From: a virus
Reading direction: 5' to 3' (one strand)
Virus record (IMG/VR): IMGVR_UViG_3300029243_000160
Location: 64,001 to 128,000 of that record
Length of the DNA: 64,000 nucleotides
Position 1 is the first letter of the stretch; each line of letters begins with the position of its first letter. This document shows positions 5,057 through 63,704 of the stretch, in pieces. The notes under the pieces were generated by a model that did no database searches, had not been told where the DNA came from, and saw nothing but the letters and a program-made list of their open reading frames with translations. A program made the position numbers and the translations under genes.

Positions 5057-5413
5057 AGGAAAGCTGTTCTTTTTGATATATATCTATGTTATTTCATATC
5101 ATCGTTATGTGATTGTTTATAAATATCACTGCTTGTGTATGTCGTTTCTAAAGCTTCTTAGAGCCGTTCTGAGGGCTTCTGAAAGCTATCTGCTAAATTT
5201 CATCACAAACACTACAGAAAGCATTACAGACCGCCTGTGGACGTTCTGAACGGCTTTTGGATTATCTCGAACTTCCTGCGTTGGAAAAAGATGCTCGTGG
5301 CGTAAATCCGTTTTTCCCTTAAACCTTACATATAGCAAGTGAGAACACGTTGAAGCCGTCCGTTGGTAAAGCGAATGGTTCTTGGAGATTTTACAAAGAA
5401 AGGAAGTTGTGAT

Positions 5414-5719
5414 ATGTGTTTGTCCCCTGATATTTATAAATACGGTTATCTCAAACAGGCTGATAAAGACAAGGTAGATATTGTGGAAATCGTGAAGCAG
5501 AGAACAATGGACGATTCCCTTGTGGAAGATTTCCTTGAAGCCAATCCTGCGGTCAGCTCTACGATGGAAAGTGTTTATGCAGAGTGCATCAGAAAGTTCC
5601 TTGCATATCAGCGTGAACGTGCGGAATATTACAAGGTCGATATAATTGTCGATTCCATTGATGGATATTCCGATGAAGAGTACCAAGCTCTCTGCGATAT
5701 GGCAGCAGCTGAAAAATGA
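5414..5719 (+). CDS. hypothetical protein (101 aa)
   Basis: ORF-track start 5363 is TTG without RBS. ATG 5414 is preceded by AAAGGAAG. Confidence 0.5.
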   Translation: MCLSPDIYKYGYLKQADKDKVDIVEIVKQRTMDDSLVEDFLEANPAVSSTMESVYAECIRKFLAYQRERAEYYKVDIIVDSIDGYSDEEYQALCDMAAAEK

Positions 5720-5733
5720 AAGGATTTATCGTG

Positions 5734-6279
5734 ATGAATAATTATAAATTAAACTGTGTCCCGATTCGGCAGGAACTGCTGGAGAAACTGGCGACTTTTG
5801 TAAGAGAAATGCTTCATGACATCAAAGGTTCTACTTCTCATGCGTATATCAATATGACTGCTGACGAGTTCTTATCGGTGTCTGATTCACACCTGAACTG
5901 GGAGAAAAGATGCCTGTCCAGTGAAGAAGACAAAGAACTCAGTGATAAGAGTTTTGATGATTTAGCTCTGATTAAGGACGCTATTATGCAGGAAGCTGAC
6001 TGCATTCCGGTTTTCCAGAATGATGAAGGCGAATGGTTCTACAATGTTCCGATTCCAGTTGTATGGAATGTTCCTGATACAGATAATGCGGTAATTCACG
6101 AACCGGAATACCTGTCTGACATAATGGAAACTATCTCCGAACTAAAAAACCCAGAAGCCAAAGAAACAACAGCACACAAAAAGGAAGGTAAAAACATGAA
6201 AAAGGCAATTATAATTACAACTGGCGTTTTAGCCATTATCGGCACTGTTGGTGCAATCGTTTACAAGAAAAGAAAGTAA
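5734..6279 (+). CDS. hypothetical protein with C-terminal transmembrane anchor
   Basis: ATG 5734 preceded by GAAAGGA (9-nt spacing); the alternative ATG 5716 lacks an RBS. C-terminal hydrophobic helix AIIITTGVLAIIGTVGAIVY followed by KKRK. Confidence 0.6.
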   Translation: MNNYKLNCVPIRQELLEKLATFVREMLHDIKGSTSHAYINMTADEFLSVSDSHLNWEKRCLSSEEDKELSDKSFDDLALIKDAIMQEADCIPVFQNDEGEWFYNVPIPVVWNVPDTDNAVIHEPEYLSDIMETISELKNPEAKETTAHKKEGKNMKKAIIITTGVLAIIGTVGAIVYKKRK

Positions 6280-6481
6280 GTGCGAACCGGAAGTTCCAGA
6301 AAAATGCTGGGACGTTCGCAGTTCAAACTAAGGCGACTTAACGTCTTTGAGCCGAGATAGTGTGCGTAATCCTCTCTCTGGAGAGTAGCATTCACTCTCG
6401 GCAAGGTAAACTGCAAGACGCAGTTTGAAATCCTGCACATAAAATCCGTGCAGGCATCTTGTAAATATGTGCATCTTTGCT

Positions 6482-6713
6482 GTTGCAACTTGTGCGTATC
6501 TGCGAGATGTAAGTTACCCGACCTGCCCTCGTCGGTGAACTCCCCGAGTTGCAACTTGTGCGTATCTGCGAGATGTAAGTTAAATGACAGCTTTTGTTTT
6601 TTACCGTTGATAAGTTGCAACTTGTGCGTATCTGCGAGATGTAAGGAGAATACAAAAGACACGATACTGCCAGCAACACCGGTTGCAACTTGTGCGTATC
6701 TGCGAGATGTAAG
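6482..6713 (+). CRISPR. orphan CRISPR-like mini-array: 4 x 32-bp repeat, 3 spacers
   Basis: Identical GTTGCAACTTGTGCGTATCTGCGAGATGTAAG at 6482-6513, 6548-6579, 6614-6645 and 6682-6713. Unique spacers of 34, 34 and 36 bp. Internal hairpin GTATCT-GCG-AGATGT. No cas genes in the window, and strand is not resolved. Confidence 0.7.
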
Positions 6714-6769
6714 CTATAAGGAGTTAAAGCCTTTAACAAAACAAAATAACAAGAAAGCAGGAATATAAA

Positions 6770-7141
6770 ATGAATGTTGCTGAAAAGACAATTGCAAAAA
6801 TTGCAAAGGAGCAGAAAAAGCTTGACACTTTGGTTGCCAAGCGTAATGAATACAATGCCAATGTTCAGGCGAAGCTGGACAGCATGAATGAGGACATCAA
6901 AGAGCAGAAAGCGGTTATTGCTGAACTCCGCAAGCAGGAAAAGGCTGAGAAGCTGGAAGCTATCAGCACTATGATGAATGACAAGGGCATTTCTGTAGAC
7001 GACCTGCTCAATGCGGTTGCAAACAACGACTTGTATGCAATTCAGGAATCAATGGAATCTTCCGAAAAGTCTGCAAGCGATTCCGAAAATACCGCTGGTG
7101 ATGACACTGCTGAAACGGTAAGTGCAAGCGATATTTTTTAA
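6770..7141 (+). CDS. coiled-coil protein with acidic tail
   Basis: ORF track. Heptad-like K/E/Q-rich N-terminal 70 aa and an acidic S/D/E tail. Confidence 0.65.
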   Translation: MNVAEKTIAKIAKEQKKLDTLVAKRNEYNANVQAKLDSMNEDIKEQKAVIAELRKQEKAEKLEAISTMMNDKGISVDDLLNAVANNDLYAIQESMESSEKSASDSENTAGDDTAETVSASDIF

Positions 7142-7170
7142 GAAAAATCACTCAAAAAAAGGATTGATAT

Positions 7171-8967
7171 ATGAAAAAGCCAACTAAGAAAAGAAAAGCT
7201 CTGCTTGCTCTTGTGATTGGCACAGTCCTTGTAAGTGGTTCGGCGTGGTTTGTCCACAGTCAGAGCAGTAGCAATGATATTGAGAAAATCACTTACACAG
7301 AATACATGGATTTAGTGAAAAAGGGCGATGTTGATACCGTGTTCTACAACGAGAACGATGAGTATATGACAGTTGCCCTTTTTTCTGATAAAACCAGAAA
7401 AATGACTGTCGAAGAACGAGAGAAGTACAAATACGATGATAACGATTATCTTCGAGAGGTAATCTATCCGGATAATGATGACTTCAAAGTCGATTTGCTG
7501 AAACAAGGCGTTTTGGTAAGAAAATCAAATAATAAGGCAACAGAATTTTTAGACCGATACGGTGATATTACACTGTTCTTTTTCCTTGCCGTTTTGATGT
7601 TCTGGATAATTTCTAAGAACTCCCCTGCTTCCAGCAAAGACTTCGCCCATATTATCAACGCCAAAGATATTGATGTTTCTTTTGACGATGTGATTGGACA
7701 TGACGAAATCAAGGACGACCTCAAACTGCTGGTAAAGCAACTGAAAAACGGTGCTGATGCCAAAGACTTATCTCATGGTGTTTTGTTTGAAGGCGGTGCT
7801 GGCACAGGTAAAACCATGCTTGCAAAAGCAATTGCTCATGAGGCAGGTGTCAATTTTATTTCTGCAAATTCCAGTGAATTTATCGAAATGTATGTTGGTC
7901 TGGGTGCAAAACGTGTCCGTGACCTGTTCAAGATGGCAAGAAAGCTTGCACCTTGCGTTCTGTTCTTTGATGAGATTGATGCTGTTGGTGCAGAACGTGG
8001 TTCTCAGAGAAGCAATCGTGAGAACGACCAAACTATCAATGCTATGCTGACAGAACTGGACGGCTTCGATGCCAGAGGCGATATTCTGGTGATTGCAGCA
8101 ACCAACCGAGCAGACACTCTTGACCCTGCCCTGCTCCGTTCCGGACGTTTTGACCGTCAAATCAGAATTGATATTCCAAAGAAATGGGAAACCCGAAAAG
8201 AACTCTTCCAGCTGTACCTGAAAGGAAATCCTATGGAAGAATCTTCGATTGATACGCTGGCAAAACAGACAGTCGGCTTTTCTGGGGCTGATATTGCTGC
8301 TGTATGCCGTGAAGCAAAAATGATTGCATTCCGTGAGGACAGCAAAACTATCACGCCTGACTTTTTGGAAGAAGCAATCGACAAAAAAGTCTTCAAAGGG
8401 AATCGTTCTGACGACAAGCAGCATGAAGATGACCTTGCCATTGTTGCCTATCATGAGGCAGGACACGCTGTCATGACACTTCTCTGCGGTAAAGAAGTGT
8501 CCAGAATTTCCATTATGGGTATGACAAGTGGCGTTGGCGGTGCAGTCTTCCAATCTGACAGTGACCGTTTCTTTGAAACAAAACACGAATACGAAAGTCA
8601 TGTGATGATTGCCTATGCAGGCAGAGCTTCTGAACAAATTCACTTTGGTTCTGATAACATCACGCAAGGAGCTTGCAACGATATTTCTCAGGCAACAAAA
8701 ACACTGATTGCTTATGTTGCAAAGTTCGGTTTTGACAGTGAGTATGGTCTGGTTGATATGGAAGCATTCCAGTCAACGTCATACGGTGACGATGTGCGGA
8801 AGCGTGTTTCGGAGCTTTCAAACAAGTTCTATGAAAAAGCACTGCATCTTCTTTCTGAAAATTACAATGCTGTAGAAGTTCTGGCACAGCATCTTTTGGA
8901 AGTAAAAACAATGTCCGGAGACGAAGCAAAGGAATTGATAGACCATGTTACGAAGAATCAAGCATAG
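7171..8967 (+). CDS. ftsH: FtsH-family AAA+ zinc metalloprotease (element-encoded paralogue)
   Basis: Two N-terminal TM helices; Walker A GGAGTGKT; Walker B LFFDEID; SRH ATNRADTLDPALLRSGRFDRQI; zinc site HEAGHAV. Confidence 0.9.
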   Translation: MKKPTKKRKALLALVIGTVLVSGSAWFVHSQSSSNDIEKITYTEYMDLVKKGDVDTVFYNENDEYMTVALFSDKTRKMTVEEREKYKYDDNDYLREVIYPDNDDFKVDLLKQGVLVRKSNNKATEFLDRYGDITLFFFLAVLMFWIISKNSPASSKDFAHIINAKDIDVSFDDVIGHDEIKDDLKLLVKQLKNGADAKDLSHGVLFEGGAGTGKTMLAKAIAHEAGVNFISANSSEFIEMYVGLGAKRVRDLFKMARKLAPCVLFFDEIDAVGAERGSQRSNRENDQTINAMLTELDGFDARGDILVIAATNRADTLDPALLRSGRFDRQIRIDIPKKWETRKELFQLYLKGNPMEESSIDTLAKQTVGFSGADIAAVCREAKMIAFREDSKTITPDFLEEAIDKKVFKGNRSDDKQHEDDLAIVAYHEAGHAVMTLLCGKEVSRISIMGMTSGVGGAVFQSDSDRFFETKHEYESHVMIAYAGRASEQIHFGSDNITQGACNDISQATKTLIAYVAKFGFDSEYGLVDMEAFQSTSYGDDVRKRVSELSNKFYEKALHLLSENYNAVEVLAQHLLEVKTMSGDEAKELIDHVTKNQA

Positions 8968-21776: not shown

Positions 21777-22157
21777 ATGAAAAACACAGTTGACCTATTT
21801 CGCATCTTCCAGCACGAACAGAAACGTGTTGGCGATAGCATGACAGTTTACTACAACATTGAAGAAAATTCCCTGCAATACAAAAACACCAAAGGCACTC
21901 TCACAGTGATATTTCATGCTTCTGATGCAGGCGAAGATTTCTATTATCAGAAGTTCGGGGAGCTTGTTTCAGAAAATGGCAAAAAGCTCGGAATCCTTGT
22001 GCAGAAAACTTATCATAACGGACAAAATGCACATTTGTTTCAAAACCCGATGACTGGCGGCTTGAAAATGTTTGAGATTCCGCAGGAGTTCATTGATATT
22101 GCAAGAGCATATCAATTCGACCGTGAATCTATTGGCTTGAAAGGAGAAACTGCATGA
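21777..22157 (+). CDS. hypothetical protein (126 aa)
   Basis: ORF track; RBS AAAAAGGAG. Confidence 0.65.
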   Translation: MKNTVDLFRIFQHEQKRVGDSMTVYYNIEENSLQYKNTKGTLTVIFHASDAGEDFYYQKFGELVSENGKKLGILVQKTYHNGQNAHLFQNPMTGGLKMFEIPQEFIDIARAYQFDRESIGLKGETA

Positions 22158-24547
22158 AAGGTAAATTCTACGCTTCCGGCGATTTGAAACAGCTGGAAAG
22201 CACATTGAAAGAACACGAACCATACGCTGTCCTTGTGGTGTCTACCACAGGGATTGACAAAGAGAACGAGTTTGAAGGACACTTTCCTACTCGTGTTGTT
22301 ATGAAGCAGTTTGAGTTTGATGACGAAACCAAAAGCTATCAGAGTGGCTTCACATTTGATAAGCTGGTGCAAGCTCCGCAAGAGGCAATCCAAGAGGCGT
22401 TGAAGAATGAAAGTTCTTACGATGTTTTTGCAAACGGTGGAATCGACAAAGAGGCGTATCTCCGTGGTGAAAATGTGCTGCCTGTTGCGGAATTTCAGAA
22501 AGAGTTTCAGACCGCAATTTCTGCGGTTCAGGAATCCAATGCTACCCTTATCATCAACAATCAAACTCACGCATTTCATTTCATGGACAAAATCCAGTCG
22601 GCTGATACGCTTCGTGAAATCAGGGAACAGGGCAAGACACTTGACCAAGTGAATCTGACCAGAGCATATTTCCGAAAGCACGATGTACAGGGACAGGCAA
22701 CATTGGAAGCTTTGCGGAATTATCGCATGAGTTCTCCTAAGAGTTCATTTCTTGCAACTGCGGATAAAGCAACACTGAAAGATTTGAGTGGTATGACAAA
22801 AGATGCTTTCATGGAAGCTCACCCAGATATTTCAGAATCCTCATACGATGTGACGAAGAAAGATTTTGACAGAAAATCTGCAAAAATCATCGGTGGAGAC
22901 CAGCGGATTCAGGTAATCAGCAACTTTATTACAGAGTATGGCAGAGAAGAAAAGATTCTGGAAAACGAATACCTCACCAGTATGCGTGAAAGCGATGCTG
23001 CCAAGACACGTCAGTGGTCTGAACGTGGTAAGGAAAAGTACCGTGAAAGCAATGTTGATGAGAAGTTCCAGACACTTATTAACAAGCACGTTATCAATCC
23101 GGAAAAAATTCTTGCAGGCGACAGTCAGTTCCACAAATTGATTGATGCAATTGAACACGGCGAAAACAAGGGCATTATGATGATTCATACTGCTACTACC
23201 GGATTCGAGAGAAAGGGGAACAGAACTGACACTGGATTCCCGATTCAGTTTGCAACAGCGGTTTATAAGCGTGGCGAAGAAGGCAAAATTGATATGTCAC
23301 ATAAAGCTGCTACAACCATGCTGATTCAAGCTCCTGCAAGAAGCATGGCAAACGCCGAAGAAAATATTCGTACCGGAAAATACGATACTTTCGCAGAATC
23401 CGGTATCAATATAGACGATTACAAAGCTGGCAAAGATGTCCTCAGCCAGTCAGAAGCACAGGAACGGATTCATAAAGTGTTCCAGATGTTTCCACCAGAA
23501 GACTATACCATTGTTACGTTCAGCAAAGACTTTGCTCAGAGAAGTCTCCAGCATCTTGGCAACTTCTCTGTAATCAATGAGCCGTCCATTGATGCTACAC
23601 AAGCAATCAAAGAATATGCCTATCTTGCAAGCCACGATGAGGCATATCATGGCGATGTTGCTCTGTTTGACATGAACAAAATGCAGGCTTTTGGCTTGAA
23701 TGATGTGGCTGAGAGCCGTGGTGCTGATGCTCCGAAATCTGCTATTTCAAAATGCTTACTGATGGGACAGCTCCTTGATGAAGCTGAACAACAGCAAATT
23801 GAACTCTTCCACCCACAGGATAAAGAGCAGACCTCGAAAGAATCCGATATTCCTCAGCAGAAAGAACCTGCTACGGAAAATGTGAAAGAATCTCCGGCAC
23901 AGGAATCTTCTCCTGTTCAGAAAGCACCAAAGGAACAGCCTGCTTCCGTTACTCCGCAAGAGGTTGCCGATGCAGAAGCAGCAATTCGGAAAGAATTTGA
24001 AAATGCTGCCAGTGAAAAAGCACAGCAGGAAACTGGAAAGGTTCGCAGATACCGCCGTGGGGAACAGCAAGAAGGAAATCGCAGAACAATTACTCGTGAG
24101 CCGTCAGAAAGTCGCCAGAAGCCTTCTCCTGCTCCACAGCAAACTATGCAAGCAGAAAACCTCGCCAAGACAAACGAAGCCTTAAACGGCGTTGTAGCGT
24201 CTCTGTCTGAGGCGTTGAGCAAGCAGACACAAAGCATGATTCAGATGCAATCAGAACTGATGCGGACAAATCAGCAGTTAATGGAAACCAATCAGCGTTT
24301 GGTATCGGCATTGGAGAAACAAAATGAAATCCTGCAATCTCTCACCGGAGAGCGTTCCGTTTCCAGAAAGCAGAATCCTGTGGAGAAAATTGAAAGCTTG
24401 AAGGAAGAGATTTCGGAAATGTCTGAAAATTTTCCTCGTTCGGCAGCAGCTTACATGACTTCTGCGAACAAAGCTCTGACAACAGCACAGCATGAATACG
24501 AGAAAAACGAACGAAATCTTGAAGTCGCTGACCGTTCGGCAAGCTAA
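22154..24547 (+). CDS. large protein with two degenerate DnaQ-like exonuclease-fold segments and coiled-coil C-terminus
   Basis: AVLVVSTTGIDKE and MMIHTATTGFERK resemble exonuclease motif I (xxDxETTG) but lack the acidic residues. NNQTHAFHFMDKI resembles motif III. The C-terminal third is Q/E-rich. Confidence 0.7.
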   Translation: MKGKFYASGDLKQLESTLKEHEPYAVLVVSTTGIDKENEFEGHFPTRVVMKQFEFDDETKSYQSGFTFDKLVQAPQEAIQEALKNESSYDVFANGGIDKEAYLRGENVLPVAEFQKEFQTAISAVQESNATLIINNQTHAFHFMDKIQSADTLREIREQGKTLDQVNLTRAYFRKHDVQGQATLEALRNYRMSSPKSSFLATADKATLKDLSGMTKDAFMEAHPDISESSYDVTKKDFDRKSAKIIGGDQRIQVISNFITEYGREEKILENEYLTSMRESDAAKTRQWSERGKEKYRESNVDEKFQTLINKHVINPEKILAGDSQFHKLIDAIEHGENKGIMMIHTATTGFERKGNRTDTGFPIQFATAVYKRGEEGKIDMSHKAATTMLIQAPARSMANAEENIRTGKYDTFAESGINIDDYKAGKDVLSQSEAQERIHKVFQMFPPEDYTIVTFSKDFAQRSLQHLGNFSVINEPSIDATQAIKEYAYLASHDEAYHGDVALFDMNKMQAFGLNDVAESRGADAPKSAISKCLLMGQLLDEAEQQQIELFHPQDKEQTSKESDIPQQKEPATENVKESPAQESSPVQKAPKEQPASVTPQEVADAEAAIRKEFENAASEKAQQETGKVRRYRRGEQQEGNRRTITREPSESRQKPSPAPQQTMQAENLAKTNEALNGVVASLSEALSKQTQSMIQMQSELMRTNQQLMETNQRLVSALEKQNEILQSLTGERSVSRKQNPVEKIESLKEEISEMSENFPRSAAAYMTSANKALTTAQHEYEKNERNLEVADRSAS

Positions 24548-25671: not shown

Positions 25672-26777
25672 GATACGCAATTGACAGCAAAGGAACAGTG
25701 CTTCCTCTCCCACCAAACCAAAATATGATACGTTTCATTCCGATTGAAGTTCGTGCAAAGGAACTTGTGAGATTCACTTCTGAATTTGCAGAACTCTTGA
25801 ACGGTGCAGGTATCAACACGCAAAATGCTAAGTATTGCTACATGATACAACCTCTCTACGCTTCGGAACGACTGGTTTATTTCACAAGAACAGAATTGTC
25901 TTCCAGTTCACAGGCAGTCCGCATGGCAAATGAGCTGGATAAGCACCCAGAATTGCTGAATCAGCCGGATATGCTCGAACTGCTCCAGAGCATCTTTCAG
26001 GACACTCGTGGCACTCCACGCTGGTATTTGATTTCTGTGGGATATGTTGAACTGGAACGCAATCTGTATGACTGCAAACGTATCAATTTGACATACCACC
26101 AACCAGTTTTCTTTCACAGATTTCAAAAAGTGATACAGAAAGAACAAATCACAAAGGAAGAACTGGAACTTGCTGTTCCGTGCGAGAAATATCGCTTTTT
26201 TTCAAATGATATAAACTTTTCCGACCGAGAAATGCTGATAGATATTGCTCTTGAAAGAGATATAGTTGGCGGTAAAGAATCTGTTTTTGATATGAAAGTA
26301 TATCAAGCCGTGAAGCAGTATCGGCAGATGAAGTTCTCTCAAAAGGACGTTTTCAGCAACACTGCCGCAAAATGCTTAAAGGACTTGAACACACACACCT
26401 CATGGAAAAAGAAAGATGTCTATATCGCTTATGACACAGCCAAAAAGCTGATAAAGAGCGTTTATAAAAATGCTTATGGCATCTGCTATAAAGATACCAG
26501 AATCACTGCTTACCTTACACCGGAGCGTTTTCTGACAATGTATGTTGGTGGTACACGAGACAGACCGTTGTACATCATTGACGGAAATTTTTTAACAATA
26601 GAACAGTTAAAAGATTATCTAATGAGCTTACAAGAGCTGCCTGTTGTTCCGTGGTTTGCGGATAAGGTGCAACCTTATATCGAAGTGAGGAAGCCTCAGA
26701 AGGCTTCCAAAGCCCAGAGAAACGTACTTCAATGGAACAAAAAGCGAAAAAAGAAGAAACCCAGAAAGGAAAAATAA
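25668..26777 (+). CDS. hypothetical protein (369 aa), basic C-terminal tail
   Basis: ATGA overlap with the upstream stop. The tail is KKRKKKKPRKEK. Confidence 0.7.
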   Translation: MRYAIDSKGTVLPLPPNQNMIRFIPIEVRAKELVRFTSEFAELLNGAGINTQNAKYCYMIQPLYASERLVYFTRTELSSSSQAVRMANELDKHPELLNQPDMLELLQSIFQDTRGTPRWYLISVGYVELERNLYDCKRINLTYHQPVFFHRFQKVIQKEQITKEELELAVPCEKYRFFSNDINFSDREMLIDIALERDIVGGKESVFDMKVYQAVKQYRQMKFSQKDVFSNTAAKCLKDLNTHTSWKKKDVYIAYDTAKKLIKSVYKNAYGICYKDTRITAYLTPERFLTMYVGGTRDRPLYIIDGNFLTIEQLKDYLMSLQELPVVPWFADKVQPYIEVRKPQKASKAQRNVLQWNKKRKKKKPRKEK

Positions 26778-26779
26778 CT

Positions 26780-29620
26780 ATGGCGAATCAAGTGAGACCT
26801 GCTTCCGAAGAGGACAAGAACAAACTGAAAGAAGCGTTCACAAAGCTATGGAACGCACTTCGCTCTATCTTCAATAAGAGAAGTGTTGTGGAGCGAATGG
26901 AAAAAATGCAACAGGAAATGGACTATATGCTGGCTCAGAACGGCATGACCGAAGATGCAGTGAAGGAACTGACAGAAACATTCAATACAATGTCTGGTCG
27001 CCTGCATACGCTTACTCCGGAAAATGTCGATGCGTTTGTAGACGAGTTGCAGCAGTCTATCAGAATTGTTGCTGAAAGGAATGAAGAATCTTATACTTCT
27101 CCGGAATTTTCAGATGATTTTATCAAAAAAATCGCATATTATGTCAAGGCTGACCCCAGCGAAGCTTTTGCTGAGGACTTGATGAAGAACGCACAGGTTG
27201 TCAAGATTGATGGCGACAACGAAAATGCCATCTTATCATACAAAGGACACTGCATGATGGCGAGACTTGATGAAAGACAAAAGCAAATCGTTCTGATAAT
27301 GAGTGCTATCCCACCGGAACAATCTGTTTTCACTGAAAACGGAGAACTTGCACAAGGATATTCTTTTGCGGAAATTCCAGAAGATATGCAGGGAAATGCA
27401 AAGCTTGTTTTGCTAAATGCACTTTGCGAACAAAGCGATAAAACTTTTGTGTACGACAAAGAAAAGGAACAACGCCGGATTCTTGAAGAAGCAAAGAAAA
27501 AAGTTTCTCCGCAGGCAAGATTCCTTGGTGAACGGTACGAAACTGCTGTACAGGAATCAGACAATCTGGAGAGTATTTATAAGCGTGATGATGCAACTTT
27601 CCGGATTCGTGACAAAGCAACTGGCGAAATGCTCCGTATCAAGTCTGACAAAGACAAAATGCAGGTATTCCTTTCTCAGGACACCCAGAGTTTCGATGTG
27701 CCAAAAGGCAGTAAAGAAATTCTGCTTGGACAGTGGGAACAGAAAGAAAAAGGAATCCTTGCAGGCAAATTCCGTCTTTCTCTTGGCAGTGACAACGTAA
27801 CATCTATGCTCCGAAGTGACGCTGTTCAGAAATGGTTTGAAATGAACGGTATCTCTCTGGAAGCACAAAACCAGTCCTTCCACCACAGAACAGACAGCAA
27901 GGCAACATGGAGCAAAGTAGACGAAGCGAAAATGTCCAACGTAATTGCTCTTCAAGAATCGTGTGCAAGGTCGATTGCTAAAAATCACCCTGATGAAAAG
28001 ATTATCGCTTCGGTTTACGAAACAACTCCGAAGAAGAAAAACCACAACAAAACATACACATTCCTGAATGTCGTGAAAGATGAAGGGAAAGGTGAAGAAA
28101 ACCCGAAGCTTTCTATCTCCTTCAATTCAGACGGCACACCGCTGACAATCAATTACAACAATCAGTTCGCATACAATATCGCAGCTCGTACTACTTCTGA
28201 GAACTATCATACGATTCTGTGGAACGACCCTGCATTCCGTGAATTGTACAATATTGCTGTTGACGCTTTACAGGAACAGGGCTTGGACAGAGGCATCTTG
28301 AAGTTCGGCGATGTTCCTTACGAGAAACAGGAAACTGCAAAGCCAGAATCTTCTTACACAGCAATCTACACTGCTGTTCCGCTTGAAGAACGTGGCTTGA
28401 CCAAACAGGATATGGATTCTTGGATTCCATTACATGAAAAAAATGATGCAAAAATCATCAACCAGCTTGCTCTGAGTGCAATTCGGAACGGAAGCATTTC
28501 CATGAAGGAAATCAAGCAAGAAACCAAAGGACACACTATCAAGACAAAGCAGGCATTGGACACTTTAGTGAAATTGGGAGTGGTTTCTGAAAGTTTGAAA
28601 CATGAAAGTCTGATGTCCGAAGAAGACTATGCAAAGGCAATCAGTGACCTTGCCAGAAATCCGCAGGCAAGAGCAGAATTTGCATCGCTTTCCAATTCTG
28701 ATGCTGAACAGAACAATTTCACAACCTATCTGACTGATTCCTATGAAGATGCTTGTCAGTATGACTGGAATCCGTATCTTGTTCTGAATAAAACAGAATA
28801 CGGTCTGGCTGATGTTGTCATGTCTGCCATCGAAACCAGACTGAACAACGGACACGACAGCATCGACTTGGCAAAGCTCCAGAGATTGACCGGAAAATCA
28901 TCACAAGAGGCAAGCAATATTATGGTTGAGCTGGAACGCATGGGTATTGTGGAAGGCGAAAACGATAAAAAGATTCTCGTTTCCAGTGATGATATTGCTC
29001 ATCTGAAAGAAGTTGCTCTCCAGCATGAAATGTCTCACGATATGGGTACACTGGAGTATGCAGAAGCAATCACTGAACTGGTTATGGAAACTATTGAAAA
29101 AGGCAGCATTTCCGTTGATGACATAATCATAAATCCTTCGATGGCTGAAAAGAATGTTAATGCAAGCAGTGCAATTCACACGCTGGAAGAACTCGGCGTA
29201 ATTTCCGGCGATGATGCTCATACCTGCCTTGTTACACAGGAAGAATACGCTCAGAAGTTCAAGGAAGGCAATTCTGATGCCTTCACAAATCTGCTTGCTA
29301 TCAGCTACGCAGAGTACACACGAGAAGAAAAGGCAGACCGTGACGAATCTATCCCTGAAAAAACAGACAGCAAGGAAGAAATTTCTTCTCCGACTGAGCC
29401 TGAACATGATGAAATTCCGGAAATGCCACCGTTCGATGAACACGACCCCTATGAAGATTATCCGGAGCAGGAAGATGCTGCGTTCGACCCGAACTATCCG
29501 TCAGATGAACTGCCAGAAGACCCTTATAGTGACGTAGAGGACAACTTCCAATTTGAAAATATGCCTGAACCGCCGGAAGAACCAGATATGAATAACGACC
29601 TTGACATGAGCTTAGACTGA
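26780..29620 (+). CDS. large protein with three FtsK-gamma-like wHTH repeats and acidic P/E/D tail
   Basis: ATG 26780 with AGAAAGGAAAA RBS. Repeats end in ALDTLVKLGVVSE, IMVELERMGIVEGE and AIHTLEELGVISGD. Confidence 0.75.
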   Translation: MANQVRPASEEDKNKLKEAFTKLWNALRSIFNKRSVVERMEKMQQEMDYMLAQNGMTEDAVKELTETFNTMSGRLHTLTPENVDAFVDELQQSIRIVAERNEESYTSPEFSDDFIKKIAYYVKADPSEAFAEDLMKNAQVVKIDGDNENAILSYKGHCMMARLDERQKQIVLIMSAIPPEQSVFTENGELAQGYSFAEIPEDMQGNAKLVLLNALCEQSDKTFVYDKEKEQRRILEEAKKKVSPQARFLGERYETAVQESDNLESIYKRDDATFRIRDKATGEMLRIKSDKDKMQVFLSQDTQSFDVPKGSKEILLGQWEQKEKGILAGKFRLSLGSDNVTSMLRSDAVQKWFEMNGISLEAQNQSFHHRTDSKATWSKVDEAKMSNVIALQESCARSIAKNHPDEKIIASVYETTPKKKNHNKTYTFLNVVKDEGKGEENPKLSISFNSDGTPLTINYNNQFAYNIAARTTSENYHTILWNDPAFRELYNIAVDALQEQGLDRGILKFGDVPYEKQETAKPESSYTAIYTAVPLEERGLTKQDMDSWIPLHEKNDAKIINQLALSAIRNGSISMKEIKQETKGHTIKTKQALDTLVKLGVVSESLKHESLMSEEDYAKAISDLARNPQARAEFASLSNSDAEQNNFTTYLTDSYEDACQYDWNPYLVLNKTEYGLADVVMSAIETRLNNGHDSIDLAKLQRLTGKSSQEASNIMVELERMGIVEGENDKKILVSSDDIAHLKEVALQHEMSHDMGTLEYAEAITELVMETIEKGSISVDDIIINPSMAEKNVNASSAIHTLEELGVISGDDAHTCLVTQEEYAQKFKEGNSDAFTNLLAISYAEYTREEKADRDESIPEKTDSKEEISSPTEPEHDEIPEMPPFDEHDPYEDYPEQEDAAFDPNYPSDELPEDPYSDVEDNFQFENMPEPPEEPDMNNDLDMSLD

Positions 29621-32786: not shown

Positions 32787-34070
32787 CTATCGTTTTCTTG
32801 CACCTAATGGATTGCAAACATACTTACGTTCTCCGGACTGTTTTTCTTTCAGTCCATCGAAGTATTCGCCGAGTGATTTCATTTCCATTTGTTTCAGTTC
32901 TTTGGTTGCGTCTGCATAGATGTTCATGGTTGTCTCTGCATCTGCGTGACCCAAGATTTCCTGCATCGCTTTGATGTTGACACCAGCTTCGCACATTCGT
33001 GTTGTGAACGTATGTCTGAGATAGTGACAGCTGAATGGTGGAAGCGTAAGCCCCATCTTGTCAAGCTGTTTGAAGTTGCAATCTCGGATAATTCTTTTCA
33101 GTGCTTTGTTGAGTGTTCCCTGATGCTGAACATTCCCAAAACGATTGATAAAAATAAAATCTGTATAGCCGTCAATCTTTGACTTGCATACCAAATTATT
33201 TTCTTTTTGATACTGTCGTTCCATTCGGAACATTTCCTTGACAATCGGCAACATCGGAATGGTTCTTTCCCCTGCCTTTGTCTTCGGAAGGTTTACTGCG
33301 AAACCACAGGTTTCTTCTCCCGCACGTCTTCTGTCGAAGTACACCAGCGTGTGATTGACGCTGATTGCTTCGTTCTCCATGTCGAGGTCGCACCAGCGTA
33401 AACCTGTTACTTCTCCGACACGCATTCCGGTGTAAAGCATTACCATAAAAATCGGTTGCCAATGCTGATACTCTGGAGTAAGTGCCAGATAATTTTCAAA
33501 AACTTCCTGCTCTTTCACGGTTAAAGCTCTTCTTTTCATAATATCACGTTCCCTTGCTTTTTTCAATTCTTTCAATGCTCCGTCTGACGGATTGAACCTC
33601 ATGTATTCGTCTTCTACACCAAGTTCCAGAACCTGATGCAGGACTGTGTGTACACTGTCCACCGTACTGACTTTCAAGCTTCTTGTTTCTGCAAGGTAGT
33701 TGTAAAAAGCTCTGACATCTGACTTTCGCAGGTCGTCAATTTTTGTGTTTCCGAAGTCTGGTTCAACAAACTGTTCGTACATATAGCAATAGTTCGTGAA
33801 GGTGTTGACTTTCAATCCACGCTTCACCTGTTTCCATCTGCAATATAAATCGTTGATAGTCATATTCTTGCTATCCGGATTTATGCCGTCCAGCATATCC
33901 CTCAGAACATCGGTTTCTTTCTCTCGCAAATCTTCAAGCGTCTTTCCATACACTGTTCTTCGCCTGCCTGTTTTATCACGCCAGCGAAATTCATATGTGC
34001 CGTTTGGACGCTCGTATTCTCCTTCTTTGAGAACACGTCTTTTGCTGTCTTTTCTTCTCTCTACTGCCAT
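32787..34070 (-). CDS. int: tyrosine recombinase / integrase, Tn916-Int-like
   Basis: N-terminal arm-binding-type segment RVLKEGEYERPNGTYEFRWRDKTGRRRTVYGKTLEDLREKE. C-terminal catalytic boxes HYLRHTFTTRM and LGHADAETTMNIYAD. RBS AAGGAGAAAG. Confidence 0.9.
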   Translation of the reverse strand: MAVERRKDSKRRVLKEGEYERPNGTYEFRWRDKTGRRRTVYGKTLEDLREKETDVLRDMLDGINPDSKNMTINDLYCRWKQVKRGLKVNTFTNYCYMYEQFVEPDFGNTKIDDLRKSDVRAFYNYLAETRSLKVSTVDSVHTVLHQVLELGVEDEYMRFNPSDGALKELKKARERDIMKRRALTVKEQEVFENYLALTPEYQHWQPIFMVMLYTGMRVGEVTGLRWCDLDMENEAISVNHTLVYFDRRRAGEETCGFAVNLPKTKAGERTIPMLPIVKEMFRMERQYQKENNLVCKSKIDGYTDFIFINRFGNVQHQGTLNKALKRIIRDCNFKQLDKMGLTLPPFSCHYLRHTFTTRMCEAGVNIKAMQEILGHADAETTMNIYADATKELKQMEMKSLGEYFDGLKEKQSGERKYVCNPLGARKR

Positions 34071-34748: not shown

Positions 34749-34949
34749 TTAAAGATAAATCTCAGAATCAATAATATAACCACATTTACATTTTACAACG
34801 GTTCTGTTATCTTCCAAAATCACTTTCGGGGTCATATTGCACTTCGGACACGTTGTCGTTACATATCCGTTTTTCTTCATCTCCGCTACAGCTTGATTTG
34901 CAAGCATAATGGGTTCTGTTAAATTCTGTTTCTTCATCTGAGTATCCAT
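34749..34949 (-). CDS. small zinc-ribbon protein (66 aa)
   Basis: Strong RBS GAAAGGAG 6 nt before ATG 34949. Motif CPKC...CKC. Overlaps the 3' 143 nt of the upstream ORF in another frame. Confidence 0.55.
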   Translation of the reverse strand: MDTQMKKQNLTEPIMLANQAVAEMKKNGYVTTTCPKCNMTPKVILEDNRTVVKCKCGYIIDSEIYL

Positions 34950-35892
34950 AAAGAACTCCTTTCATAAAACTATCTGTTTCTTTATCTGTTTCCAAAATAT
35001 TTCCGCTTTCTCTTGCTCTCTCTTTTGCATCATTGATAAGGTCTGCACGTTCTTGTTGGGAAAGGTTTGGAGCGTTTTTTGCTGCGGTAATACTTGCCCT
35101 GCACTCATCTGCCCACTGGGGCGTAGTTCTGTCTGCATCTTCCTTTCCCAAATCTGCTAAATATTCATTTCTAAACACTCGATGACCATAATATTCATGA
35201 GCAAGAACAGCAGCTACACTCATTACATCTCTTGGGTGTGTTGAACCGTGGTCATTATCTGGGAAAACATTTCTTGTCACATATATTTTATCCTGAACAC
35301 AATTGTAACAGGTGCTTCTATCCATATGTGCTTCATCATTAAAGATGAATACAGATTCATCAGCTCCAATTCTTCTTATTTCTAATTTTACAAAATCAAT
35401 TTCTTCATTTGTCAATGGCTCTCTTGACAAATTACGCATTCCAGATGACATTAGTTTGTCATCTGAATGAAAATGTTCAAATAGCTTTTCTTCATTTTTC
35501 ACACGCCAACTTTGGAAGGGAGCTTTTTTTCGTGGAGCGTTTTTTTCTCCAGATTTTATTTTCCGCTTGACTGGCTCACTACCCTGAATTTTCTTCATCA
35601 TATCATATTGTTTCCCAATATTTGTGACATCAAATCTGCTTACACATTGAGCAAACCACGGAAATTCGTCTGTCAACTTTTCAACAAAGCGTTCTACCTG
35701 CGTTTTACTCATTGGCTTATCAGAAGAATAACCAGACAATTGCCTGTGTGAAAATCCGTTTTCTTTCATGAAAGTTTTTATTTCTTTGTAAGCTTTCAAA
35801 TATTCCAACGGATTGTTTGTGGTGCAATAAACTTCTTTCAGCTTTTTTGTATCGAGGTCGAAGTTAATAGCCTTTCTCATTTTACCTACCAT
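34807..35892 (-). CDS. VapD (Cas2-fold endoribonuclease)-like domain fused to an HExxH zincin-like domain
   Basis: N-terminus RKAINFDLDTKKLKEVY..AYKEIKTFMKENGFSHRQLSGY...FPWFAQCVSRFDVTNIGKQYD aligns by eye with VapD (YAxAFDL..L...Y..AY..GF..QGSxY..W....V......F). C-terminal domain has AAVLAHEYYGHRVFRNE. Start is ATG 35892 or 35880. Confidence 0.7.
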   Translation of the reverse strand: MVGKMRKAINFDLDTKKLKEVYCTTNNPLEYLKAYKEIKTFMKENGFSHRQLSGYSSDKPMSKTQVERFVEKLTDEFPWFAQCVSRFDVTNIGKQYDMMKKIQGSEPVKRKIKSGEKNAPRKKAPFQSWRVKNEEKLFEHFHSDDKLMSSGMRNLSREPLTNEEIDFVKLEIRRIGADESVFIFNDEAHMDRSTCYNCVQDKIYVTRNVFPDNDHGSTHPRDVMSVAAVLAHEYYGHRVFRNEYLADLGKEDADRTTPQWADECRASITAAKNAPNLSQQERADLINDAKERARESGNILETDKETDSFMKGVLYGYSDEETEFNRTHYACKSSCSGDEEKRICNDNVSEVQYDPESDFGR

Positions 35893-63459: not shown

Positions 63460-63670
63460 ATATAAAATTTAAGAGGGTGGTGAATTACCGCAGTAATACT
63501 ACCACCCTCTAGTGACTGATTTTACCGTTGTCCGAACCAACAACATCGACCCTTATGTTCGACAGTAGAGCGAAGATTATTTCGTTGCTTCGCCAACGCT
63601 CTGTATCTTTCGCAACAGAGTTGGTCACAACTGTAACCACCGGATTGAATCGTGTCAGCCCACGCTGTTA
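63460..63670 (-). ncRNA. candidate structured RNA or structured DNA element (~210 nt)
   Basis: Has its own promoter (63676-63704). Successive hairpins: CTCTGT/ACAGAG at 63599-63620, GCGAAG/CTTCGC at 63560-63584, and a 10+5-bp hairpin AGAGGGTGGT..ATTAC-CGCA-GTAAT..ACCACCCTCT at 63472-63510, followed by a U/A-rich tract. No family recognised. Confidence 0.35.
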
Positions 63671-63675
63671 TTCTT

Positions 63676-63704
63676 ATTATACGCTAAACCACAAGAAAAA
63701 TCAA
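63676..63704 (-). promoter_or_regulatory. candidate promoter TTGATT-17-TATAAT
   Basis: Read directly on the minus strand. Confidence 0.45.

What the first reader, a model, noticed from the sequence alone, without database searches (positions are those of the whole stretch)
6290..6740. Orphan CRISPR-like mini-array carried by the mobile element, with no cas genes in 64 kb
Four identical 32-bp repeats (GTTGCAACTTGTGCGTATCTGCGAGATGTAAG) are separated by three unique spacers of 34, 34 and 36 bp. This geometry is typical of type I arrays.

The repeat has a 6-bp (G-U-containing) stem-loop and ends in ATGTAAG, reminiscent of clostridial type I-B repeat ends (...ATGTAAAT). The reverse orientation ends in GTTGCAAC, reminiscent of I-C (...ATTGAAAC). 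A ~190-bp structured leader-like region precedes the array.

Arrays on prophages and plasmids that depend on host Cas proteins are known, for example in C. difficile prophages and in viral mini-arrays. This one would let the element target competing MGEs.
Basis: partly seen in the sequence, partly recalled or inferred. Interest (0 to 1): 0.7.

Follow-up and report, generated by a model that had tools for sequence, protein, structure and literature searches.

The report
Cas12f guide-RNA module: tracrRNA plus mini-array
The repeats are a genuine CRISPR array, but of the miniature Cas12f (type V-F) kind, the "leader" is its tracrRNA, the nuclease gene lies about 38 kb away on the same large conjugative element, and the spacers target a rival mobile element.

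Summary
In detail: four identical 32-bp repeats with spacers of 34, 34 and 36 bp, preceded by a structured region.

It is a real, evolving CRISPR array on a mobile element, and it targets another mobile element. It is not type I and it is not truly orphan.

- **Repeat:** it belongs to the published OsCas12f1 (type V-F1) direct-repeat family.
- **"Leader":** positions 6329-6464 are a Cas12f tracrRNA. A covariance model built without this family hits only there (E=2e-18), 19 of 32 pairs covary, and a 10-bp anti-repeat pairs with the repeat.
- **Spacer turnover:** across more than 20 copies of the element the array has 1-4 repeats and 12 different spacers. The spacer furthest from the tracrRNA is shared and the nearest ones vary.
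- **Targets:** six spacers, four from this array and two from a sister array, match one serine-recombinase-bearing element, five of them behind a TT-ending 5' flank.
- **Effector:** the 64-kb window has no cas12f. In Coprococcus sp. AF38-1 and on a 135-kb contig, an intact cas12f with its own tracrRNA and array lies about 38 kb from this module.
- **Adaptation:** no cas1, cas2 or cas4 was seen.

Verdict: a new member of a known kind, with an unusual second, remote guide module. Moderate interest.

The parts
6280..6328 (+). 5' flank of the module. It holds a hairpin (GTGCGAAC...GTTCGCA) directly after the stop codon of the upstream 187-aa ORF. It is homologous to the sequence that follows the cas12f stop codon in the sister module A.
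   Evidence: The blastn match of window 6279-6498 to L053 5286-5503 (78% over 225 nt, E=4e-41) begins at the cas12f stop codon of L053. The sequence was read.
6329..6464 (+). tracrRNA-B, a type V-F1 (Cas12f1) tracrRNA homologue on the same strand as the array.
   Evidence: A covariance model built only from 8 cas12f-adjacent tracrRNAs (3 published) gives a single hit in the window: 6329-6464(+), 95.1 bits, E=2.3e-18, full model length. In the alignment with published tracrRNAs, 19 of 32 pairs covary, 97.8% of cells pair against 32-50% when the partners are slid, and 0 of 500 shuffles reach the observed values.
6454..6463 (+). Anti-repeat (GCAUCUUGUA), which pairs with repeat positions 20-29 (UGCGAGAUGU).
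   Evidence: RNAduplex gives -13.4 kcal/mol over 10 bp, and 4 of 300 shuffles reach this value. The equivalent segment covaries with the repeat in module A, in the chromosomal P0018 loci and in OsCas12f1. There is no pairing with the P0018 repeat (-4.5 kcal/mol).
6461..6471 (+). Variable patch. It has 5 substitutions in copies L002, L008 and L022, where it is identical to the corresponding segment of tracrRNA-A. This suggests gene conversion between the two modules.
   Evidence: patch variants; module A sequence GGCATCTTATAGTTTTGTACATCTTTGCT.
6482..6713 (+). CRISPR array B. Four 32-bp repeats lie at 6482-6513, 6548-6579, 6614-6645 and 6682-6713. The spacers are W1 (6514-6547), W2 (6580-6613) and W3 (6646-6681). 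W1 is the newest and W3 the ancestral one.
   Evidence: and the census. The repeat family matches the OsCas12f1 direct repeat GTTGCAACCCGCGTATGGGCGCGGCTTGAAGG. W1 matches L023 and L024 at 31 of 34 positions inside a serine-recombinase gene.
6714..6769 (+). Conserved trailer. It contains a small hairpin (GTTAAAG-C-CTTTAAC) and the ribosome-binding region of the next gene. Its first 49 nt are also kept next to the solitary repeat in L001.
6770..7141 (+). Downstream neighbour, not part of the CRISPR module: the H-NS_N-like 123-aa gene that opens the long + strand operon (FtsH-like, YdjM, LPD polyvalent protein and others).
   Evidence: Pfam hits. The gene is present in all copies.

Best explanation
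Window 6329-6713 is a self-contained guide-RNA module of a type V-F1 CRISPR-Cas12f system. It consists of a tracrRNA gene (6329-6464) followed on the same strand by a 4-repeat, 3-spacer array (6482-6713). It sits on a large conjugative element, about 135 kb, of human-gut Lachnospiraceae (Coprococcus sp.).

The proposed mechanism runs as follows.
1. The tracrRNA and pre-crRNA are transcribed on the + strand.
2. The anti-repeat (6454-6463) pairs with the 3' half of each repeat.
3. The tracrRNA:crRNA duplex loads onto Cas12f, a 437-439 aa protein. Cas12f is encoded about 38 kb away on the same element, next to a first tracrRNA and array (module A).
4. The complex recognises DNA that carries a T-rich 5' PAM (TTT or CTT) and cuts it.

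Both arrays are aimed at one rival mobile element that carries several large serine recombinases, so the system serves competition between mobile elements. New spacers enter at the tracrRNA-proximal end, probably through adaptation proteins supplied in trans.

**Shown here:** the array, the tracrRNA homology and its covariation, the anti-repeat pairing, the polarised spacer turnover, the protospacers with their PAM, the location of cas12f in sister copies, and its intact catalytic residues.

**Inferred:** transcription, processing, cleavage in vivo, adaptation in trans, and the presence of cas12f in the very genome the window comes from.
For: - **Repeat family.** The window repeat has the same length (32 nt) and the same 5' GTTGCAAC as the published OsCas12f1 and Ob3Cas12f1 direct repeats, and a similar 3' end.
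- **tracrRNA.** Searches give E=2.3e-18 with an independent model, 19 covarying pairs and 0 of 500 shuffles.
- **Anti-repeat.** The duplex is -13.4 kcal/mol and covaries with the repeat across four lineages.
- **Related loci.** Distant arrays of the same family sit directly beside Cas12f homologues. L031_433 has Cas12f1-like_TNB plus OrfB_IS605 domains and matches PDB Cas12f chains at E=1e-121. Chromosomal loci L045-L049 show the canonical order cas12f, tracrRNA, array.
- **Polarity.** The arrays are window/L003 [W1][W2][W3]; L005, L006, L011, L016 and L020 [X1][M2][W3]; L022 [M1][M2][W3]; L008 [M1][W3]; L010 [W3]. L047 and L048 compared with L046 and L049 show the same polarity.
- **Targets.** M1 33/33, W1 31/34, C2 28/35 and X1 27/34 from array B, and 27/27 and 36/39 from array A, all match L024 and its relatives. 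Five of the six have TT at positions -2 and -1 (P=5e-5). The strand relative to the target genes is mixed, which points to DNA targeting.
- **Effector location.** P0122 (RJW77539.1, Coprococcus sp. AF38-1) lies at QVGO01000001.1 247,427-248,746, and the array (L008) at about 209.6 kb. On Ga0557493_004088 (135,107 bp), cas12f is at about 98 kb and module B at about 1.6 kb, which is 38 kb by wrap-around.
- **Catalytic residues.** P0122 keeps the RuvC D/E/D residues and both CxxC pairs.
- **Published context.** V-F systems are enriched on plasmids, often lack adaptation genes, and plasmid arrays mostly target plasmids (PMC9071438; PMC11656645).
Against: - No cas12f lies in the 64-kb window or within about 8-10 kb beyond either end. 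Its presence in the window's own genome is extrapolated from sister copies.
- W2, W3, M2 and C4 have no known target.
- W1's three mismatches include positions 3 and 6, near the PAM, so the sampled target variant may escape it.
- No expression data exist, and the simple consensus scan found no sigma-70-like promoter on the + strand.
- About 30 kb of the element was never examined, so the absence of cas1 and cas2 is not proven.
- The C2 (28/35) and X1 (27/34) matches are weak. Part of X1 is a generic promoter-like motif.
Confidence: 0.8

Rival explanations
1. Trans-acting or hijacking guide cassette. Module B brings its own tracrRNA and crRNAs, so it could work mainly with Cas12f proteins encoded elsewhere, either in the host or recipient chromosome or in other elements. 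That would let the element use a resident nuclease. Copies without cas12f would still be armed.
For: - Module B is 38 kb from cas12f and on the opposite strand.
- It is complete in itself, with both tracrRNA and array.
- Human-gut bacteria carry chromosomal cas12f loci with similar tracrRNA scaffolds.
- L014 keeps array B in a rearranged context.
Against: - Every case where I could place both parts shows cas12f on the same contig.
- tracrRNA-B is closest to tracrRNA-A of the same element (78-80% identity) and shows gene conversion with it.
- Compatibility of tracrRNA-B with the chromosomal effector, which shares 68% protein identity, is untested.
Confidence: 0.12
2. One reading: an orphan type I (I-B or I-C) mini-array that relies on a host Cascade, Cas6 and Cas3 system.
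For: - The 32-bp repeat and 33-36-bp spacers resemble type I-C geometry.
- The repeat ends in ATGTAAG.
- The PAM is 5' and T-rich.
- No cas genes lie in the window.
Against: - The repeat and the adjacent RNA are homologous to published Cas12f1 direct repeats and tracrRNAs.
- Related arrays sit next to cas12f, never next to type I genes.
- The repeat's 22-nt core is absent from 185,579 species-representative genomes, so no host type I array shares it.
- The repeat-internal hairpin is not supported.
Confidence: 0.02
3. An inert duplicate: a decaying remnant of a duplicated tracrRNA-array segment with no current function.
For: - The arrays are short, with 1-4 repeats.
- Some copies hold a single repeat (L012, L019, L001).
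- L014 has lost most of the tracrRNA.
Against: - Across more than 20 copies the repeats within each array are identical, and the 40 nt next to the first repeat are the same in most copies. The full tracrRNA was compared only with L002, where it differs only in the 5-substitution patch.
- Spacers turn over in a polarised way.
- The newest spacers match a real, co-occurring element, one of them perfectly.
- The anti-repeat stays matched to its own repeat variant.
Confidence: 0.05
4. A protein-binding repeat array (iterons or a centromere), or an RNA decoy that blocks a host CRISPR system.
For: - The array lies near RepL and the relaxase region.
- Solitary-repeat copies exist.
Against: - The inter-repeat sequences are not conserved between otherwise identical elements.
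- Repeat spacing varies (66, 66 and 68 bp).
- The spacers match foreign DNA that carries a PAM.
Confidence: 0.01

Closest known systems
OsCas12f1, Ob3Cas12f1 and Ob2Cas12f1 type V-F1 systems (Kong et al. 2023, PMC10090079)
   Same: - The direct repeat is 32 nt, starts with GTTGCAAC and has a related 3' end.
- The tracrRNA scaffold is homologous motif by motif (CGAGA-AGT, ACxCTCG, AAGGT, GCACAT..AATCCGTGCA).
- The anti-repeat lies at the tracrRNA 3' end.
- The PAM is 5' and T-rich.
- The effector has about 433-439 aa.
   Different: - Here the tracrRNA carries an extra hairpin after AAGGTA, as L031 and module A also do.
- The middle of the repeat differs.
- This module is not adjacent to cas12f. 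It is a second copy about 38 kb away.
- I did not compare the effector directly with OsCas12f1. It is 63-64% identical to the Oscillospiraceae L031 protein.
AsCas12f (PDB 7WJU, 8J12, 8DZJ)
   Same: The closest related effector found here (L031_433) matches these chains at E=1e-121 over the full length. They share the RuvC and zinc-finger architecture.
   Different: It comes from a different genus. I did not compare the guide RNAs.
Plasmid-borne CRISPR-Cas used for competition between plasmids (type IV, V-M and V-F on plasmids; PMC9071438, PMC11656645)
   Same: - The system is carried by a conjugative element.
- No adaptation genes were seen.
- The arrays are short.
- The spacers target another mobile element.
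   Different: Here the effector appears nuclease-competent, unlike Cas12m or type IV systems. There are also two separate tracrRNA-array modules.
Virus- and plasmid-borne orphan mini-arrays and solitary repeat units (reviewed in PMC11656645)
   Same: - The array has one to three spacers.
- It is aimed at competing elements.
- Single-repeat variants exist in some copies.
   Different: Those arrays copy the host's repeat and use host Cas proteins. This one has its own tracrRNA and an element-encoded effector, and its repeat was not found in any representative genome.

Membership tests
Type V-F1 CRISPR-Cas12f (tracrRNA-dependent) | Direct repeat belonging to the family, in the published orientation | tested here: met
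   The window repeat GTTGCAACTTGTGCGTATCTGCGAGATGTAAG compares with the OsCas12f1 repeat GTTGCAACCCGCGTATGGGCGCGGCTTGAAGG and the Ob3 repeat GTTGCAACCCGCTCGCTGGTGTGACTTGAAGG. All are 32 nt. Arrays of the same repeat family lie next to cas12f in L031, L045-L049 and L059.
Type V-F1 CRISPR-Cas12f (tracrRNA-dependent) | Homologous tracrRNA scaffold encoded beside the array | tested here: met
   A covariance model built without the window's family gives a single hit at 6329-6464(+), 95.1 bits, E=2.3e-18. The covariation control gives 19 covarying pairs and 0 of 500 shuffles.
Type V-F1 CRISPR-Cas12f (tracrRNA-dependent) | Anti-repeat complementary to the 3' part of the repeat | tested here: met
   The duplex is 10 bp and -13.4 kcal/mol, reached by 4 of 300 shuffles. 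It covaries between lineages.
Type V-F1 CRISPR-Cas12f (tracrRNA-dependent) | cas12f effector gene in the locus | tested here: not met
   The window and about 8-10 kb beyond each end hold no such gene. It is present about 38 kb away on the same contig in Coprococcus sp. AF38-1 and on a 135-kb metagenomic contig. The feature is therefore met for the element but not for the window.
Type V-F1 CRISPR-Cas12f (tracrRNA-dependent) | Intact RuvC catalytic triad and zinc finger in the effector | tested here: met
   P0122 has GVDLG, IQMEKL and NADYNA plus two CxxC pairs. The cluster representative P0007 has GVNLG instead.
Type V-F1 CRISPR-Cas12f (tracrRNA-dependent) | T-rich PAM 5' of the protospacer on the spacer-sense strand | tested here: met
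   Five of 6 protospacers have TT at -2 and -1 (P=5e-5), and 4 of 6 have TTT.
Type V-F1 CRISPR-Cas12f (tracrRNA-dependent) | Expression of the guide RNAs and RNA-guided DNA cleavage | not testable with these tools
   This needs small-RNA sequencing and interference assays.
   No Cas families were hit in the window. The repeat core is absent from 185,579 representative genomes. Family members found by the termini pattern sit next to cas12f.
   85.7% of cells pair, but 179 of 500 shuffles do as well, and a slide of -2 gives 78.6%.
MGE-borne orphan mini-array that exploits host Cas proteins | Repeat identical to a host chromosomal CRISPR repeat, and no cas genes on the element | tested here: not met
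   The repeat was found in no representative genome, and the element encodes its own Cas12f. The targeting of a competing element is met.
Iteron or centromere repeat array | Inter-repeat sequences conserved together with the repeats, at fixed spacing | tested here: not met
   There are 12 different spacers and 1-4 repeats between flanks that are identical where compared (census).

The most novel reading that the evidence does not exclude
Module B may be a portable, effector-independent guide cassette. It carries its own tracrRNA and crRNAs and sits at the head of the element's long + strand operon, far from cas12f. It could therefore be expressed early after transfer and load onto any compatible Cas12f already in the recipient, either chromosomal (the P0018 type) or from another element. 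That would redirect a resident nuclease against the element's rival.

The two inverted tracrRNA-array modules may also act as recombination substrates that reshuffle the 38 kb between them. The L014 rearrangement and the gene-conversion patch point that way.
Probability: 0.12. Interest if true: 0.7.

Novelty: new member of a known kind. Interest (0 to 1): 0.45.

Why it matters
Cas12f systems are studied almost only as compact genome editors, and their natural biology is little documented. This locus offers a natural example.

- A conjugative element of human-gut Lachnospiraceae carries an apparently active Cas12f with two separate tracrRNA-array modules.
- Its spacers turn over in a polarised way with no adaptation genes in view.
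- At least six spacers from two arrays converge on one rival element.

It also provides a ready-made, naturally matched set of parts for testing: the effector P0122, two tracrRNAs, two repeat variants and PAM evidence.

For genome annotation, it is a reminder that a 'leader' beside a cas-less array can be a tracrRNA. The effector here is currently labelled 'transposase'.

Tried and rejected
- **Exact repeat and flanks elsewhere.** The exact repeat gave nothing in IMG/VR. blastn of 5700-7200 gave nothing in the plasmid or phage collections. The 22-nt repeat core gave nothing in 185,579 representative genomes.
- **Known RNA families.** Rfam gave nothing at gathering thresholds for the whole window, and only chance-level hits on 6200-6800.
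- **Protospacer searches.** All 12 spacers joined by N runs gave no match in the phage or plasmid collections. I ran no positive control for that query format. They gave no match within the window or the element copies.
- **IMG/VR spacer scans.** The 20-mer scans for W2, W3, M2 and C4 found nothing. The X1 20-mer hits in L025-L028 are a generic promoter-like motif, not protospacers.
- **Hidden effectors in the window.** I considered the 797-aa, 962-aa, 566-aa and 448-aa ORFs. They have no hits in Pfam, PADLOC, PHROGs, NCBIfam or PDB beyond noise and no similarity to the Cas12f queries. I rejected them.
- **Reverse orientation of the array.** A repeat ending in GTTGCAAC would look like a Cas6-type handle. 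I rejected this because of the spacer polarity, the 5' T-rich flank seen only in the + orientation, and the published orientation of the repeat family.
- **Repeat-internal hairpin.** I first read the variant repeats as compensatory changes. The formal test does not support that reading.
- **Termini-pattern scan.** Eleven of the 14 hits were chance matches with no repeated unit.
- **Second co-location coordinate.** The look-up of P0128 returned a different contig. The links to the L021 and L009 contigs therefore rest on equal contig lengths only.

Full report
**1. Observation**

The sequence is as described. Four identical copies of GTTGCAACTTGTGCGTATCTGCGAGATGTAAG lie at 6482, 6548, 6614 and 6682 on the + strand. 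They are separated by spacers of 34, 34 and 36 bp. The window holds no other copy with up to three mismatches, and shuffles give none. The three spacers differ widely in GC content, at 0.65, 0.26 and 0.47.

**2. Surroundings**

- The array lies between a 187-aa ORF (5716-6279) and an H-NS_N-like gene (6770-7141). That gene opens a long + strand operon with an FtsH-like protease, YdjM, an LPD polyvalent protein, a CHC2 primase-like protein and a DHH protein. A Tn916-type integrase follows at 32787-34070(-).
- The rest of the window also looks like mobile-element DNA: NikA-like, GmrSD-like, a UvrD/PD-(D/E)XK helicase, an exonuclease and a sigma-like protein.
- No Cas family was hit in Pfam, PADLOC, PHROGs or NCBIfam.
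- There are no tRNAs and no Rfam families.

**3. It is a real, evolving CRISPR array**

A metagenome scan and exact-protein look-ups with the two flanking genes recovered more than 20 copies of the same element. They come from different human-gut samples and one isolate genome. Upstream genes in these copies are RepL, HU, a Mob_Pre relaxase and a TraG-like protein, so the element is conjugative.

The flanks are identical over about 1.09 kb upstream in the one copy aligned in full (L002). The 40 nt upstream and 50 nt downstream of the array are the same in most of the other copies. Only the array differs:

| Copies | Array content |
|---|---|
| window, L003 | [W1][W2][W3] |
| L005, L006, L011, L016, L020 | [X1][M2][W3] |
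| L022 | [M1][M2][W3] |
| L002 | [M1][M2] |
| L008 | [M1][W3] |
| L010 | [W3] |
| L012 | one repeat only |

A sub-lineage with a T10C repeat variant carries repeat-spacer-repeat with five different spacers (C1-C5). L015 and L056 carry a third repeat variant.

That makes twelve different spacers between conserved flanks. The spacer furthest from the upstream region is shared, and the nearest ones vary. This is the pattern of polarised CRISPR acquisition.

**4. Type: V-F (Cas12f), not type I**

- The repeat's 22-nt core is absent from 185,579 species-representative genomes.
- A termini-anchored two-repeat pattern found three true relatives in Clostridia MAGs: L031 (Oscillospiraceae), L035 (Ruminococcus) and L037 (Ruminiclostridium). 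The other 11 hits were chance matches.
- In L031 the gene directly upstream of the array region is a 433-aa protein with Cas12f1-like_TNB and OrfB_IS605 domains.
- In L035 the gene directly downstream is a 456-aa homologue. It is 36% identical to the L031 protein (E=1e-85), but its own Cas12f1-like_TNB hit is just below Pfam's cutoff, at 25.9 against 26.3 bits.
- The L031 protein matches solved Cas12f structures (8J12, 7WJU, 8DZJ, 9NZQ) at E=1e-107 to 1e-121.
- Kong et al. 2023 (PMC10090079, Supplementary Data 1) list the OsCas12f1 direct repeat as GTTGCAACCCGCGTATGGGCGCGGCTTGAAGG. It is 32 nt, has the same 5' octamer and the same orientation. The PAM they used was 5'-TTTC, and the engineered variant accepts 5'-TTN.

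**5. The 'leader' is a tracrRNA**

The published OsCas12f1, Ob2 and Ob3 tracrRNAs align with window 6329-6464 across the whole scaffold. RNAalifold predicts five helices, and 19 of 32 pairs change on both sides while staying paired.

In the control, 97.8% of cells pair, against 32-50% when the partners are slid. None of 500 shuffles reaches the observed covariation.

A covariance model built only from eight cas12f-adjacent tracrRNAs (three published, none from the window's family) gives a single hit in the 64-kb window. It is at 6329-6464(+), with 95.1 bits and E=2.3e-18, and it covers the full model.

The segment GCAUCUUGUA (6454-6463) pairs with repeat positions 20-29 at -13.4 kcal/mol, a value reached by 4 of 300 shuffles. 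The equivalent segments pair with their own repeats in module A, in the chromosomal P0018 loci and in OsCas12f1. tracrRNA-B does not pair with the P0018 repeat.

The repeat-internal hairpin that I first read as covarying is not statistically supported.

**6. Orientation**

Three lines of evidence agree on the + strand:
- New spacers appear on the tracrRNA side. The canonical chromosomal loci L045-L049 show the same.
- The repeat family's published orientation matches.
- Only in this orientation do the protospacers share a T-rich 5' flank.

**7. Targets**

No spacer matches the phage or plasmid collections, the window, or the element itself. In IMG/VR:

| Spacer | Source array | Match on L024 or relatives | Location |
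|---|---|---|---|
| M1 | B | 33/33 | in an ORF of unknown function |
| W1 | B | 31/34 | inside a 562-aa large serine recombinase gene |
| X1 | B | 27/34 | just upstream of that gene |
| C2 | B | 28/35 | in a neighbouring ORF |
| L060 spacer | A | 27/27 | in the same recombinase gene |
| L063 spacer | A | 36/39 | not mapped to a gene |

Six spacers from two arrays and several lineages therefore converge on one element family that carries at least three serine recombinases.

Five of the six have TT at -2 and -1 (P=5e-5), and four have TTT. Ten of the 12 array B spacers start with T. The strand relative to the target genes is mixed, which fits DNA targeting.

**8. Where the effector is**

Neither the window nor about 8-10 kb beyond either end encodes a Cas12f homologue.

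A search with the L031 protein found 2,027 relatives. One cluster (P0007, 437 aa, 311 members) lies beside a tracrRNA that is 78-80% identical to the window's. The homology starts exactly at the cas12f stop codon.

Members of that cluster sit on the same contigs as the element:
- **P0122** (RJW77539.1, annotated 'transposase', Coprococcus sp. AF38-1) is at QVGO01000001.1 247,427-248,746. The array (L008) is at about 209.6 kb. They are about 38 kb apart on opposite strands, which puts cas12f about 31 kb beyond the window's left edge.
- **On Ga0557493_004088** (135,107 bp), module B is at about 1.6 kb and cas12f at about 98 kb. Wrapping around the contig ends again gives about 38 kb, as expected for a circular element of about 135 kb.
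- **Two further links** rest only on equal contig lengths.

Next to cas12f lies module A: tracrRNA-A plus an array with repeat GTTGCAATCTGCGTATAGGCGTAAGATGTGAG, holding 1-3 spacers and a degenerate last repeat. P0122 keeps the RuvC D/E/D residues and both zinc-finger CxxC pairs.

**9. What remains open**

- No cas1, cas2 or cas4 was seen in the roughly 100 kb of the element that I could inspect, nor beside the chromosomal cas12f loci. About 30 kb was not examined.
- Adaptation in trans is the usual explanation for plasmid-borne systems (PMC9071438). Here it is an inference.
- Expression, processing and cleavage are untested.
- The presence of cas12f in the window's own genome is extrapolated from sister copies.

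**10. Comparison and verdict**

Subtype V-F is known to be enriched on plasmids. Plasmid systems often lack adaptation genes, and plasmid arrays mostly target other plasmids. This locus fits that picture and is a new member of a known kind.

The unusual points are these:
- There is a second, remote and inverted tracrRNA-array module with its own matched anti-repeat.
- The two modules show gene conversion: the patch at 6461-6471 in L002, L008 and L022 is identical to tracrRNA-A.
- Two arrays converge on one rival element.

Noticed in passing
window 34807-35892 (-): A 361-aa protein next to the Tn916-type integrase has an N-terminal VapD domain (NCBIfam NF041506, E=3e-33, residues 6-102). VapD belongs to the Cas2 superfamily. 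The remaining 260 residues have no hit.
   Followed up: no
window 63462-63704 (-): A 244-nt stretch is 90% identical to the CRISPR-targeted element (L024 4274-4514, and also L029 and L030). It looks like a promoter (TTGTGG-N17-TATAAT) followed by a structured RNA of about 190 nt that ends in a terminator-like hairpin. There is no Rfam match. It may be an unknown non-coding RNA shared by the two rival elements.
   Followed up: partly
window 5310-5342 (-): A 33-nt intergenic motif (TCACTTGCTATATGTAAGGTTTAAGGGAAAAAC) matches the target element at 31 of 33 positions (L024 8983-9015), upstream of its serine-recombinase gene. It is conserved in all copies of the element. It may be a shared regulatory site.
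   Followed up: partly
L035 2100-3400 (-) and 656-2026 (-): A Ruminococcus sp. MAG contig that also carries MobA/VirD2 relaxase and NikA/MobC genes has three tandem modules. Each is a tracrRNA followed by repeat-spacer-repeat. Beside them is a Cas12f homologue whose RuvC-I motif is GVHIA instead of GVDLG, so it may be naturally nuclease-dead.
   Followed up: partly
L014 9490-9862, compared with L059 13318-21320: In one copy, the genes that normally follow module A (an 80-aa ORF, PIF1 helicase, tyrosine integrase, RusA, SocA_Panacea) lie inverted directly upstream of array B. Only the last 72 nt of the tracrRNA remain. This suggests rearrangement between the two modules.
   Followed up: partly
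L001 (whole, - strand): A solitary T10C repeat plus the 49-nt trailer is fused directly into the middle of the FtsH-like gene. It has no tracrRNA and no H-NS-like gene, and a different gene lies upstream.
   Followed up: no
window about 7015-7025; L002 1577-1594: L002 has an 18-bp in-frame insertion (GGTTGCACCACGCCCGGG) in the H-NS-like gene. It sits at a GGTTGCA site that resembles the start of the CRISPR repeat.
   Followed up: no
window 22154-24547 (+) and 26732-29620 (+): Two large ORFs of 797 and 962 aa flank the primase-like gene. They have no significant match in Pfam, PADLOC, PHROGs, NCBIfam or PDB sequences.
   Followed up: partly
L053, L061, L066, L071, L072 (contig ends): Many contigs of 37-41 kb from independent sequencing runs end at or shortly after cas12f, inside or near tracrRNA-A and array A. 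That is what an assembly break at the duplicated tracrRNA sequence would produce. Short-read assemblies may therefore often separate the effector from its arrays.
   Followed up: no
P0007 (representative of the effector cluster), alignment A3: The cluster representative has GVNLG (D to N) at RuvC-I, while P0122 has GVDLG. This could be a natural inactive variant or a sequencing error.
   Followed up: no
PMC10090079 Supplementary Data 1 (CrCas12f1): The published CrCas12f1 repeat GTTATATATTAACTAAGTGATATGTAAAG looks, from memory, like a clostridial type I-B repeat, and the PAM used for it was 5'-TCCA. This hints that V-F arrays without adaptation genes may mimic the repeats of co-resident type I systems to borrow their Cas1-Cas2.
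   Followed up: no
L057 and L058 1719-3830 (beyond the window's right end): A 703-aa protein with LRR_5 repeats and a weak Dockerin_1 hit lies on the element just outside the window.
   Followed up: no
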